A stretch of DNA of 64,000 bases, taken from the NCBI RefSeq assembly GCF_048403405.1, contig NZ_CP183129.1, one strand, 5' to 3'. Position numbers and translations under genes: made by a program. This document shows, piece by piece, positions 29,764 through 30,499 of the stretch; within the stretch, counting starts at the first letter, position 1; each line of letters opens with the position of its first letter. The stretch is from Escherichia coli (GTDB lineage Bacteria > Pseudomonadota > Gammaproteobacteria > Enterobacterales > Enterobacteriaceae). Under the pieces are notes generated by a model. That model did not search any database. It was not told where the DNA came from and was given only the letters and a program-made list of their open reading frames with translations.

Positions 29764-30219
29764 ATGGTCTTTGCAATGAGCAAATCTAATCTGATCGCGT
29801 TCCGCATCCCATCTGAATTGCAGGATGAGTTTAATCGGTCTGTTCTCGCTTCTGGAGGAGATAAAACCTCTTGGCTTGTTGATGCGATTCGCATGAAGCT
29901 GGGGCAGCCGGAAAAGTCTATTGATTCACGAATGCTTGGGCTGGTGGAGCGCATGGAAAAAGCCGCTGCGTCGCTTATTGCCGGAAAGCCGAACATCCCA
30001 CCAAAACCATATAACGAAACGGCAGTTATAAAGATCATTGCCGATACCATCCAACAGGGATTTGATAATGGGCGTGTGATAGCTGAACGGATCAATGAAG
30101 CAGGCTATCAAACAAAAGCTGGTAAAGCGTGGGATAAAGATATTTACAGCGCGTGGAAGCGTCAGGGAAGCAATGCTGAAAAGTTAAAAGCGGTGATTGA
30201 TTGTAAGGTCAGCGTATAA
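29764..30219 (+). CDS. Hypothetical protein with N-terminal ribbon-helix-helix-like DNA-binding motif, 151 aa
   Basis: N-terminus SKSNLIAFRIPSELQDEFNRSV...GGDKTSWLVDAIRMKL fits a beta-strand/helix/helix (Arc/CopG-like) pattern; first gene after iteron array 1. Start could be 29764 or 29776. Confidence 0.5.
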   Translation: MVFAMSKSNLIAFRIPSELQDEFNRSVLASGGDKTSWLVDAIRMKLGQPEKSIDSRMLGLVERMEKAAASLIAGKPNIPPKPYNETAVIKIIADTIQQGFDNGRVIAERINEAGYQTKAGKAWDKDIYSAWKRQGSNAEKLKAVIDCKVSV

Positions 30220-30298
30220 ACATGAGTGCCCATTGGAAAGCTGCTTGGGCTAATACCTTTATACACCATCAGGTGGTGACGATAGGTGAGGATCAGAC

Positions 30299-30499
30299 AT
30301 GAAAGGCAGAACGCCACACATTGAACATCAAGCCAACCACTTCTCGGATGTTCGCAATGAGATGATTGCCATTCGCGGTGATATGCACGGAATGGAGCGT
30401 CGCCTAGCAGATAAGATGGACGAGAATCAAAAGTGGATCATCGTCCTGTTGATTTTATCAATTCTTATCCCGCTACTTATCGCATTGGTCACAAAATGA
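30299..30499 (+). CDS. Small C-terminally anchored membrane protein (XhlA-like architecture), 66 aa
   Basis: Charged N-terminal region followed by a single C-terminal TM helix WIIVLLILSILIPLLIALV; resembles phage XhlA-type small membrane proteins in architecture only. Confidence 0.45.
   Translation: MKGRTPHIEHQANHFSDVRNEMIAIRGDMHGMERRLADKMDENQKWIIVLLILSILIPLLIALVTK

What the first reader, a model, noticed from the sequence alone, without database searches (positions are those of the whole stretch)
29764..30499. RHH-like DNA-binding protein followed by a small C-terminally anchored membrane protein
A ribbon-helix-helix-type protein immediately upstream of a 66-aa single-TM membrane peptide is an arrangement reminiscent of antitoxin/toxin or regulator/lysis-peptide pairs. 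The membrane peptide resembles XhlA-type phage proteins in architecture only.
Basis: inference. Interest (0 to 1): 0.35.

Follow-up and report, generated by a model that had tools for sequence, protein, structure and literature searches.

The report
Satellite regulator beside swappable membrane-protein cargo
The two genes are real but are not a toxin–antitoxin pair: one is a conserved, probably self-regulating DNA-binding protein of an E. coli phage-satellite island, and the other is a tiny XhlA-like membrane protein, shared with P22-like prophages, that sits in the island's swappable cargo slot where related islands carry anti-phage genes.

Summary
Both ORFs exist and are under purifying selection. 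The window holds an ~18-kb EcCIMP1-like phage-inducible chromosomal island (PICI; 28810-46764).

The 147-aa protein (start most likely 29776, not 29764) is a backbone gene found across Enterobacterales. It has an N-terminal RHH-like domain, a long helix and a C-terminal recombinase-like HTH domain. A conserved palindrome (29715-29731) overlaps its promoter. In 44 loci this site switches sequence together with the RHH beta-strand residues, so autoregulation is the best reading.

The 66-aa protein is tail-anchored (TM 47-65) and is a remote XhlA relative, not just an architectural look-alike. Its homologues lie in P22-like prophages at the sieA position of the mnt operon.

The two genes are not a conserved pair:
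- None of 48 non-E. coli RHH loci carries the small gene.
- About half of E. coli RHH islands carry it.
- It fills a 332-bp exchangeable slot (30187-30518) that elsewhere holds Abi_2, ImmA/IrrE, RnlA, PemK, Fic or SocA genes.

The toxin–antitoxin reading is rejected. Co-transcription from the RHH promoter is plausible. A role for the peptide in phage conflict at the membrane is inferred only. Interest is modest.

The parts
28810..28833 (.). Left direct repeat of the island (ATTATGTACACC..TATGTACACG); candidate att core or integrase-binding repeats
   Evidence: The only 10-12-nt exact matches between the two island ends; sequences read. dinD lies just outside the repeat.
29217..29504 (-). PerC-family regulator gene, divergent from the RHH gene
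   Evidence: Pfam PerC E 3e-33; RefSeq annotation. The EcCIMP1 counterpart is EcCIMP1_025 (PMC11773190).
29541..29661 (.). Iteron array A: 3x GTTGGTTCA at 9-bp spacing, an AT-rich spacer, then 3x the reverse complement at 21-bp spacing. Probable ori/crr-type site, not the RHH operator.
   Evidence: 12 copies in the window against 0.5 expected, all in two arrays. Conserved in Salmonella; Serratia has different iterons although its RHH beta-strand is the same type. Also present in EcCIMP1, which lacks the RHH gene.
29715..29742 (+). Candidate RHH operator overlapping the promoter: GTATAAC-AGT-GTTATAC palindrome (29715-29731), a third half-site GGTATAC, and a -10-like TATACT (29737-29742)
   Evidence: Unique in the window, none expected by chance. 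Conserved about 35-60 nt upstream of the start in 25 loci and replaced by TGTCTTAC-N2-TGTCTTAC in 19 loci with a different beta-strand. 49 of 54 matches in IMG/VR are followed by an RHH-147 gene.
29776..30219 (+). RHH-147 gene: N-terminal RHH-like domain, long helix (49-69), C-terminal recombinase-like HTH domain (about 78-147). Backbone gene of the island family.
30187..30518 (.). Exchangeable cassette (cargo hotspot slot). It includes the last ~11 codons of the RHH gene, the 79-nt spacer and the 66-aa gene.
   Evidence: Similarity to islands L018 and L019 stops at 30174-30186 and resumes at 30519. The slot there holds ImmA/IrrE plus a 125-aa gene, or an Abi gene.
30299..30499 (+). 66-aa XhlA-like tail-anchored membrane protein (phrog_6324); Shine-Dalgarno-like GGTGAGGA upstream
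   Evidence: sequence.
30519..30948 (.). Conserved right flank of the hotspot; no annotated gene
   Evidence: 94-96% identical in L018, L019 and EcCIMP1. No Rfam hit and no phage match.
30954..31373 (+). Multi-TM membrane protein (139-aa ORF; RefSeq start gives 129 aa). Sits at the position of sieA relative to gene 16 but is not a detectable SieA homologue.
31392..36050 (-). P22-like ejection-protein block: gp16-like 31392-33497, gp20-like 33497-34918, gp7-like 34918-35595, gp14/DUF2824-like 35589-36050
   Evidence: PHROG hits; Pfam tags on orthologues; RefSeq names.
36677..36787 (.). Iteron array B, a mirror image of array A, immediately 3' of the primase gene
36813..39572 (-). TOPRIM/DUF927 primase-type replication protein of the island
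   Evidence: the same family occurs in related islands.
45424..46683 (-). Tyrosine integrase of the island
   Evidence: RefSeq annotation mapped from L001; ORF.
46741..46764 (.). Right direct repeat of the island, within a run of four ATGTACA(C/T) motifs upstream of int

Best explanation
The two genes are neighbours because of mosaic architecture, not because they form a two-component system.

(1) The island. The window carries an ~18-kb EcCIMP1-like phage-inducible chromosomal island (PICI, a phage satellite) between dinD and yicC.

(2) RHH-147. It is a backbone gene of this island family. Its N-terminal ribbon-helix-helix domain most likely binds the 10-bp-periodic half-sites GTATAAC / GTTATAC / GGTATAC that overlap its own promoter, and so represses its own transcription. 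Operator conservation and its co-variation with the beta-strand are shown; binding and repression are inferred. The nearly invariant C-terminal recombinase-like HTH domain has an unknown second role.

(3) The cargo slot. Directly 3' of this gene lies the island's cargo hotspot. Different islands carry Abi_2, ImmA/IrrE plus a partner, RnlA, PemK, Fic, SocA-Panacea or nothing there.

(4) The 66-aa gene. In this island the slot holds a single 66-aa gene. It belongs to a small gene family found mainly in P22-like prophages, where it lies downstream of mnt and a Zn-ribbon gene at the sieA position, apparently in the mnt transcription unit. The product is a tail-anchored inner-membrane protein and a remote relative of XhlA and SPP1 gp24.1.

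(5) Expression. This cassette is co-oriented with RHH-147, has no terminator or recognisable promoter of its own, and has a strong ribosome-binding site. It is probably expressed at a low, RHH-limited level from the integrated island (inferred).

(6) Function of the peptide (inferred). It most likely acts in phage-phage conflict at the inner membrane. Candidate actions are cooperating with or perturbing a phage holin, as XhlA-type proteins do, or interfering with entry. It is not a self-toxin held in check by the RHH protein.
For: Island identity:
- Same backbone proteins and gene order as EcCIMP1 (PMC11773190).
- Terminal direct repeats.

RHH-147 as a backbone gene:
- More than 365 homologue clusters at 63-80% identity, found in Salmonella, Serratia, Klebsiella, Erwinia and 44 further loci at the same island position.
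- dN/dS 0.06-0.07.

Operator:
- A unique palindrome 45 nt upstream of the start.
- A perfect two-class association between beta-strand sequence and operator sequence in 44 loci.
- 49 of 54 genome-wide operator matches are followed by the gene.

The iterons are a separate system: two arrays, one next to the primase gene, and present in EcCIMP1 without the RHH gene.

Hotspot:
- Cassette boundaries.
- Alternative contents.
- One island with the primase gene directly after the RHH gene (L039).

Phage link of the 66-aa gene:
- P22-like prophage context, with overlapping start and stop codons from mnt onward.
- Also found in a Klebsiella siphophage.

XhlA relationship:
- 20 of 51 distant profile hits match PF10779, best E 2.9e-8.
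- hhalign of the family against these bridging sequences gives 98.7% probability, E 2.4e-16.
- The 111-aa prophage homologue hits XhlA at E 4.7e-4, phrog_689 'holin' at 1e-5 and phrog_1193 'hemolysin' at 6.5e-5.
- XhlA and gp24.1 are harmless alone and act together with a two-TM holin (PMC6316719; PMC5589764).

Between the two genes there is no terminator, no promoter-like site and no unusual RNA structure.
Against: - No experiment bears on either protein.
- RHH assignment rests on sub-threshold sequence and fold matches plus the operator inference. The two operator classes correspond to two clades, so the co-variation is effectively one evolutionary event.
- The XhlA link is sub-threshold in Pfam (no hit for the 66-aa protein itself; gathering score 34.7 bits never reached). 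It involves coiled-coil and TM segments that are prone to compositional matches, and the bridging set was chosen by the family's own profile.
- The defence role is guilt by association. PADLOC has no match.
- The superinfection-immunity phenotype of EcCIMP1 cannot be due to this gene, because EcCIMP1 lacks it.
- The island copy lacks the Zn-ribbon partner (phrog_4293) that precedes the gene in both phage contexts, so it may not work the same way, or at all.
- The simple promoter scan did not call the proposed RHH promoter.
Confidence: 0.6

Rival explanations
1. One reading: a dedicated two-gene module in which the RHH protein is an antitoxin or repressor that neutralises or tightly controls a toxic or lytic 66-aa membrane peptide.
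For: The genes are adjacent and co-oriented with a 79-nt gap and no terminator. RHH domains are common in antitoxins, and weak fold hits to VapB were seen. phrog_689 'holin' is a weak hit (E 0.024).
Against: - The pair is absent from 48 of 48 non-E. coli RHH loci and from about half of E. coli RHH islands.
- The small gene is an exchangeable cassette.
- A sharp recombination break separates the two genes.
- The C-terminal half of RHH-147, where an antitoxin would bind its toxin, is the most conserved part regardless of the neighbouring gene.
- Phage homologues of the small gene have other neighbours.
- There are no toxin, antitoxin or PADLOC hits.
- XhlA-type proteins are not toxic alone (PMC6316719).
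Confidence: 0.05
2. The 66-aa gene is a decaying or functionless hitch-hiker: a fragment of a P22-like immI-region cassette that landed in the hotspot without its Zn-ribbon partner and does nothing for the island.
For: The partner gene phrog_4293, which overlaps the XhlA-like gene in P22-like prophages and precedes it in the Klebsiella phage, is missing here. Frameshifted or fused variants exist in databases (P0014, P0016, P0176). The family is small.
Against: - dN/dS is 0.22-0.25.
- Two intact allelic forms (66 aa, and 73 aa with a 7-codon insertion) are kept in about 168 complete E. coli genomes.
- The ribosome-binding site is intact.
- Short forms without an N-terminal extension also occur in a phage and in Leclercia.
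Confidence: 0.15
3. RHH-147 is mainly a life-cycle DNA-handling factor of the satellite (replication-origin, excision-directionality or packaging-site recognition protein) rather than a simple autoregulator. Its position next to the cargo slot would then be incidental.
For: - The gene sits about 115 nt from an iteron array and about 1 kb from the island end.
- In EcCIMP1 and in Klebsiella islands the same position carries an AlpA/Xis-like gene.
Against: - EcCIMP1, which lacks RHH-147, is induced, excised, packaged and transferred (PMC11773190), so the protein is not needed for these steps in this family.
- The iterons vary independently of the RHH beta-strand type.
- The RHH palindrome occurs only once in the window.
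- All matches for the C-terminal domain are below threshold.
Confidence: 0.2

Closest known systems
XhlA of Bacillus subtilis PBSX / gp24.1 of phage SPP1 (Pfam PF10779)
   Same: Small protein with an N-terminal cytoplasmic coiled-coil-type helix and a single TM segment at the extreme C-terminus. Shares the D-K-x-D-x-N-x-K-W motif just before the TM segment. Profile-profile match 98.7% to sequences that hit PF10779.
   Different: Below the Pfam gathering score. Occurs in a Gram-negative host. Not next to a holin or endolysin; it lies in a prophage mnt-linked cluster or a satellite cargo slot. No two-TM holin partner is nearby.
P22 immI region: Mnt (RHH repressor) - orf59a - sieA, between genes 16 and 9
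   Same: Homologues of the 66-aa gene lie downstream of mnt and convergent with gene 16, exactly where P22 has orf59a and sieA. In the island an RHH gene likewise precedes the small gene, and a gp16-like gene converges on the group.
   Different: RHH-147 is not detectably a Mnt orthologue (hhalign probability 10%; no Arc Pfam hit). Neither the 66-aa nor the 139-aa protein resembles SieA. SieA has several TM segments and an experimentally shown exclusion function (PMC10461980).
EcCIMP1, a PICI of E. coli MP1 mobilised by the P22-like phage Kapi1 (PMC11773190)
   Same: Same backbone: int, alpA-like HTH, antA/B, ash, small ORFs, TOPRIM/DUF927 primase, P22-like ejection-protein genes, PerC and the same iterons. 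Identity is 97% over 9.3 kb.
   Different: EcCIMP1 uses a different integrase and att site (tRNA-Thr). It lacks both RHH-147 and the 66-aa gene and has alpA_1 and other DNA in their place.
Defence and accessory hotspots of phage satellites (P4-like satellites, PICIs; PMC9122126, PMC11364771)
   Same: A short slot between conserved backbone sequences that holds alternative, unrelated cassettes rich in Abi and toxin-type genes.
   Different: This hotspot belongs to the EcCIMP1-like family and is flanked by the RHH-147 gene. I did not find it described in the papers read here. The 66-aa cassette matches no known defence model.
Autoregulating RHH repressors with repeat operators (Arc, Mnt, CopG, omega); comparison from general knowledge of the superfamily
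   Same: A beta-strand reads short repeated half-sites with about 10-bp periodicity that overlap the protein's own promoter. Specificity changes with beta-strand residues.
   Different: RHH-147 is twice the usual size, with an extra, highly conserved recombinase-like HTH domain. No significant match to any curated RHH model.

Membership tests
Type II toxin-antitoxin pair (RHH antitoxin plus toxin) | The two genes co-occur as a conserved bicistronic unit across genomes | tested here: not met
   0 of 48 non-E. coli RHH loci and about 46% of E. coli RHH islands carry the small gene. Cassette boundary and recombination break lie between the two genes.
Type II toxin-antitoxin pair (RHH antitoxin plus toxin) | The second gene belongs to a known toxin family, or the first to a known antitoxin family | tested here: not met
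   No Pfam, NCBIfam or PADLOC match of that kind.
Type II toxin-antitoxin pair (RHH antitoxin plus toxin) | The toxin arrests growth and is neutralised by the antitoxin protein | not testable with these tools
   Needs inducible expression. Literature on XhlA-type proteins says they are harmless alone (PMC6316719).
XhlA family (Pfam PF10779) | Scores above the Pfam gathering threshold (34.7 bits) | tested here: not met
   No hit for the 66-aa protein at E<=1. The 111-aa homologue scores 20.7 bits, E 4.7e-4.
XhlA family (Pfam PF10779) | Detectable remote homology through profiles | tested here: met
   The family profile retrieves proteins of which 20 of 51 hit PF10779, best E 2.9e-8. hhalign gives 98.7% probability, E 2.4e-16 over 75 columns. 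Caveat: sequences are rich in coiled coil and TM, and the bridging set was selected by the same profile.
XhlA family (Pfam PF10779) | Architecture: soluble helical N-terminal part and a single C-terminal TM segment | tested here: met
   AF2 predicts a single helix 7-65. TM 47-65 has mean hydropathy 3.19, with one residue after it.
XhlA family (Pfam PF10779) | Encoded in a lysis cassette beside a two-TM holin and an endolysin | tested here: not met
   Neighbours are RHH-147, a multi-TM protein and ejection-protein genes. In prophages the neighbours are mnt, a Zn-ribbon gene and a coiled-coil gene.
Ribbon-helix-helix (Arc/MetJ/CopG) DNA-binding superfamily | Significant match to a curated RHH model or a solved RHH structure | tested here: inconclusive
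Ribbon-helix-helix (Arc/MetJ/CopG) DNA-binding superfamily | Beta-alpha-alpha layout with a short N-terminal strand carrying the specificity residues | tested here: met
   Extended residues 3-11 followed by helices 13-25 and 30-42. Strand residues N5/L6/A8 versus L5/S6/T8 switch together with the operator.
Ribbon-helix-helix (Arc/MetJ/CopG) DNA-binding superfamily | Binds repeated half-sites at its own promoter | not testable with these tools
   Supported indirectly: a conserved palindrome with a -10 element and strict linkage to the gene. Needs EMSA or a reporter assay.
PICI (EcCIMP1-like phage satellite) - context of both genes | Integrase, AlpA-type regulator, primase-type replication gene, about 10-20 kb, flanking direct repeats, no full set of structural or lysis genes | tested here: met
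   97% identity over 9.3 kb to the experimentally mobilised EcCIMP1 (PMC11773190).
PICI (EcCIMP1-like phage satellite) - context of both genes | Induction and transfer by a helper phage | not testable with these tools
   Shown for EcCIMP1 with Kapi1, not for this island.
P22 SieA superinfection-exclusion protein | Sequence similarity to SieA types A-C, including the FnRYPnEAnnFNK motif | tested here: not met
   BLASTP of the 139-aa membrane protein against P22 SieA gives E 0.77. The motif is absent from both small proteins (sequences; motif from PMC10461980).
Holin | Small membrane protein with a charged C-terminal tail, encoded next to an endolysin | tested here: not met
   Only one residue follows the TM segment and there is no endolysin nearby. 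phrog_689 matches at only E 0.024.

The most novel reading that the evidence does not exclude
The 66-aa XhlA-like tail-anchored peptide is itself a minimal, single-gene phage-conflict effector. It would be carried as an exchangeable cassette in the defence hotspot of a P22-dependent satellite and in the mnt-linked cluster of P22-like prophages, and kept at a low level by the RHH-147 autorepressor. When a phage holin appears, or when DNA is being ejected, it would act on the inner membrane, for example by triggering premature hole formation or blocking the ejection conduit. This would be an XhlA-type 'holin accomplice' re-used for exclusion or abortive infection in Gram-negative bacteria.
Probability: 0.2. 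Interest if true: 0.6.

Novelty: new member of a known kind. Interest (0 to 1): 0.3.

Why it matters
1. It removes a false lead: this is not a new RHH/membrane-toxin TA system.

2. It defines a precise cargo hotspot, with base-level boundaries, in the recently described EcCIMP1-like PICI family. That gives a place to look for new anti-phage genes.

3. It gives an uncharacterised, very conserved protein family (RHH plus recombinase-like HTH, no Pfam model) a testable operator and a natural specificity switch.

4. It links a tiny Gram-negative membrane protein family (phrog_6324) to XhlA. It also places the family at the sieA position of P22-like prophages, which suggests a testable role in phage-phage conflict.

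Tried and rejected
- **Family scans.** Pfam, NCBIfam, PADLOC and PHROG scans of both proteins gave no significant named family, except phrog_6324 (unknown function) for the small protein.
- **Phage collection.** Megablast of the locus found nothing. tblastn with RHH-147 found nothing. The 66-aa protein hit only four Klebsiella phages.
- **Structure searches for RHH-147.**
  - Foldseek against PDB: nothing below E 1.
  - BFVD: nothing below E 0.1.
  - PDB sequence profile search: nothing.
  - afdb50 was unavailable.
- **Iterons as the RHH operator.** Rejected. They occur twice, the second array lies next to the primase gene, they persist in EcCIMP1 without the RHH gene, and they differ in Serratia while the RHH strand type does not.
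- **RHH-147 as a Mnt orthologue.** Not supported.
- **The 139-aa membrane protein as SieA.** Not supported.
- **The RHH operator in helper phages.** Genome-wide matches are almost all at the gene itself.
- **Terminator, promoter or structured RNA between the two genes.** None found.
- **The 66-aa ORF as a 5'-truncated fragment of the 111-aa form.** Rejected as the simple explanation. Natural short forms exist, and the N-terminal 16 residues remain alignable.
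Full report
**1. What is at the coordinates**

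The window has two co-oriented ORFs, 29764-30219 (151 aa) and 30299-30499 (66 aa), 79 nt apart. The DNA is E. coli chromosome. A 1.3-kb query around the locus is 99.9% identical to several complete genomes, where the genes are annotated as hypothetical proteins next to a PerC-family regulator.

The start of the first gene is most likely 29776. More than 40 homologues start MSKS/VSKS/MNKS at that position, the upstream DNA diverges, and RefSeq uses it too.

Both genes are under purifying selection:
- The first gene has dN/dS 0.06-0.07 against Salmonella and Serratia orthologues.
- The 66-aa gene has dN/dS 0.22-0.25 against three homologues.

**2. Genomic context: an EcCIMP1-like PICI**

The genes lie near one end of an ~18-kb island between dinD and yicC. 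The island is bounded by near-identical 24-bp direct repeats at 28810-28833 and 46741-46764. Its genes are:
- a tyrosine integrase;
- an AlpA-like HTH gene;
- an antA/antB antirepressor;
- an ash-family gene;
- a TOPRIM/DUF927 primase;
- a block of P22-like gp14, gp7, gp20 and gp16 genes;
- PerC.

The backbone is 97% identical over 9.3 kb to EcCIMP1. EcCIMP1 is a phage-inducible chromosomal island of E. coli MP1 that the P22-like phage Kapi1 induces, packages and transfers (PMC11773190). EcCIMP1 itself has neither of the two genes under study.

**3. The first protein ("RHH-147")**

It belongs to a family of more than 365 sequence clusters with no Pfam domain. Members are 63-80% identical across Escherichia, Salmonella, Klebsiella, Serratia, Pantoea, Erwinia, Providencia, Proteus, Morganella, Photorhabdus and Xenorhabdus.

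AF2 (pLDDT 77) gives:
- an extended N-terminus;
- helices 13-25 and 30-42, the RHH pattern;
- a long helix 49-69;
- a confident four-helix C-terminal domain, residues 78-147.

The RHH assignment is supported only by sub-threshold matches:
- phrog_30270 at E 3.7e-4;
- an in-register hhalign with Mnt at E 0.003 but 10% probability;
- Pfam RHH_1 in 1 of 42 members;
- weak VapB and CopG fold hits.

**4. Operator**

Forty-five nt upstream of the start lies GTATAAC-AGT-GTTATAC (29715-29731). A third half-site GGTATAC and a -10-like TATACT follow it. The palindrome is unique in the 64-kb window.

In 44 loci from other genera the flanking DNA is unrelated, but one of two elements is always present:
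- 25 loci with beta-strand K-S-N-L-(I/V)-A-F-R have TGTATAAC-N3-GTTATAC followed by a TATAAT-like -10.
- 19 loci with K-S-(L/I)-S-V-T-F-R have TGTCTTAC-N2-TGTCTTAC followed by GGTAAAAT.

In the whole IMG/VR collection, 49 of 54 matches to the first pattern are immediately followed by an RHH-147 gene. One further match is cut by the end of the stored DNA.

I infer that the RHH domain binds this site and autoregulates. The two classes are two clades, so the co-variation counts as one event.

**5. The iterons are something else**

GTTGGTTCA occurs 12 times in the window against 0.5 expected. The copies form two mirror-image arrays, 29541-29661 and 36677-36787. The second array lies just 3' of the primase gene.

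The arrays persist in EcCIMP1, which lacks RHH-147. They also differ in Serratia although its RHH strand is the same type. They are most likely origin-type sites, comparable in layout to P4 ori and crr (my knowledge of P4), and not RHH operators.

**6. The 66-aa protein**

It is a single predicted helix (residues 7-65). The segment 47-65 is very hydrophobic and only K66 follows it, so the protein is tail-anchored. It matches phrog_6324 (E 3e-15, unknown function) and has no Pfam hit.

The family is small: about 37 clusters, or 25 representatives below E 1e-10 among 1.8 billion proteins. Evidence for a remote link to XhlA:
- The family profile reaches more distant proteins, of which 20 of 51 match Pfam XhlA (best E 2.9e-8, just under the gathering score).
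- hhalign between the family and these bridging proteins gives 98.7% probability. A D-K-x-D-x-N-x-K-W motif before the TM segment is shared.
- The 111-aa prophage homologue hits XhlA (E 4.7e-4), phrog_689 'holin' (1e-5) and phrog_1193 'hemolysin' (6.5e-5) directly.

The resemblance to XhlA is therefore probably homology, with the caveat that coiled-coil and TM sequences are prone to compositional matches.

In B. subtilis, XhlA and SPP1 gp24.1 are not harmful alone. They cooperate with a two-TM holin to kill and lyse the cell (PMC6316719; PMC5589764).

**7. Where the small gene's relatives live**

In P22-like prophages of E. coli the homologue (77-111 aa) lies in a fixed order: arc(-) | mnt(+) > ~122-aa CxxC Zn-ribbon protein (phrog_4293) > XhlA-like > ~75-109-aa N-terminal-TM coiled-coil protein | gene 16(-).

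Start and stop codons overlap from mnt onward. This is the position where P22 has orf59a and sieA. Mnt is P22's maintenance-of-lysogeny repressor (record annotation), so the cluster is probably expressed from the prophage; this is an inference from gene order, not a measurement.

A Klebsiella siphophage carries the same Zn-ribbon plus XhlA-like pair as an insert among its tail genes. The island copy has no Zn-ribbon partner.

**8. The two genes are not a conserved pair**

- Among complete E. coli genomes, RHH-147 is in 359 and the small gene in 175. About 164 genomes have the contiguous arrangement.
- None of 48 RHH-147 loci from other genera has a member of the small-protein family within 4-8 kb.
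- In most loci the gene after RHH-147 is on the opposite strand.
- Similarity between this island and E. coli islands L018 and L019 stops at 30174-30186, inside the last codons of RHH-147, and resumes at 30519.
- Between two islands the RHH gene is 100% identical while the small gene differs at 17 of 201 nt.

The slot holds different content in different islands:

| Island or genus | Content of the slot |
|---|---|
| This window | 332 bp with the 66-aa gene |
| E. coli GN02100 | ImmA/IrrE plus a 125-aa gene |
| E. coli AST240, O26; Raoultella; Providencia | Abi_2 |
| Serratia | PemK |
| An Erwinia MAG | RnlA |
| Rosenbergiella | Fic |
| Tatumella | Trypsin-like peptidase |
| Mixta | SocA/Panacea |
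| Photorhabdus | Nothing: the primase gene follows directly |

This is the signature of a satellite cargo or defence hotspot, as described for P4-like satellites and PICIs (PMC9122126; PMC11364771).

**9. Most likely mechanism**

- **Shown:** independent evolutionary modules; a conserved gene-linked operator; a hotspot with defined borders; a phage-related XhlA-like cargo gene.
- **Inferred:** RHH-147 represses its own promoter. The co-oriented cassette has no terminator, promoter-like site or unusual RNA structure before it and has a good ribosome-binding site, so it is probably read from that promoter at a low level. The peptide then acts at the inner membrane in phage-phage conflict, most plausibly through a holin-related or entry-related step.

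The TA reading is rejected for four reasons: co-occurrence fails; the conserved C-terminus of RHH-147 does not track the neighbouring gene; no toxin or antitoxin family matches; and XhlA-type proteins are not self-toxic.

Because EcCIMP1 completes the whole satellite cycle without RHH-147, the protein is not an essential life-cycle factor in this family.

**10. Verdict**

The proposed functional coupling is not. The true picture is a backbone regulator next to an exchangeable cargo slot in a known kind of element.

This is a new member of known kinds, of modest interest. The best open lead is whether the 66-aa XhlA-like peptide is a minimal phage-conflict effector.

Noticed in passing
window 29541-29661 and 36677-36787: Two mirror-image arrays of six GTTGGTTCA iterons each (12 copies against 0.5 expected) bracket the whole cargo region. 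One lies next to perC and RHH-147, the other just 3' of the primase gene. The layout recalls P4 ori/crr. The same arrays are present in EcCIMP1.
   Followed up: partly
window 31392-36050 (- strand): The satellite carries its own P22-like gp14, gp7, gp20 and gp16 genes. SieA of P22-like prophages targets the C-termini of gp16 and gp20 (PMC10461980). Satellite-encoded ejection proteins might therefore let satellite particles enter SieA-positive helper lysogens. [quoted passage not shown]
   Followed up: no
window 30519-30948: A 430-bp segment without an annotated gene is 94-96% identical in islands with different cargo, including EcCIMP1 (L068 4099-4530). It has no Rfam match and no match in the phage collection. 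It could be a promoter region, a packaging or recombination site, or an unannotated small gene.
   Followed up: partly
L009 7395-8681; L015 5270-6620; L002 5526-6177: P22-like prophages carry a conserved cluster downstream of mnt: phrog_4293 Zn-ribbon, then phrog_6324 XhlA-like, then phrog_5962/8100 N-terminal-TM coiled-coil. Start and stop codons overlap, and the cluster sits at the sieA position. The Zn-ribbon plus XhlA-like pair also occurs in a Klebsiella siphophage. All are of unknown function.
   Followed up: partly
L003 9439-12408; L021 10511-13222; L023 9788-10888: Related islands in Salmonella and Klebsiella carry 900-989-aa proteins, TMP_3-like in Klebsiella and without a Pfam hit in Salmonella. 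An Erwinia island carries an E217_GP41-like protein. These sit where the E. coli islands have P22-type ejection-protein genes, as if each island lineage carries virion-internal proteins matched to a different helper.
   Followed up: no
window 29217-29504 (-), 28810-28833, 46684-46790: perC points toward the island end. After excision and circularisation its transcription would run across the joined att site into the integrase gene. Four ATGTACA(C/T) repeats lie upstream of int and two at the other end.
   Followed up: no
L040 (JAHEOE010000100.1, labelled Candidatus Paceibacterota MAG): This 5.7-kb contig encodes an RHH-147 homologue whose operator and N-terminus are of the Morganella type (compare L043, L045). 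It is probably a mis-binned enterobacterial contig.
   Followed up: no
L121 (IMGVR_UViG_3300025600_000129), - strand, around position 975 of the reverse complement: An AT-rich contig carries the same GTATAAC-AGT-GTTATAC plus TATAAT element. A ribosome-binding site follows, and then a different small ORF whose N-terminus (KKTVTFNLSEE) also looks RHH-like. This may be an unrelated RHH protein using the same operator, or chance.
   Followed up: no
RHH-147 residues ~78-147 (window 30007-30216): In BFVD the C-terminal domain weakly resembles AsiA-type anti-sigma-70 proteins (probability 0.7-0.9, E 0.25-0.5). This is not significant, but it is a lead for why the domain is nearly invariant across genera.
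   Followed up: no
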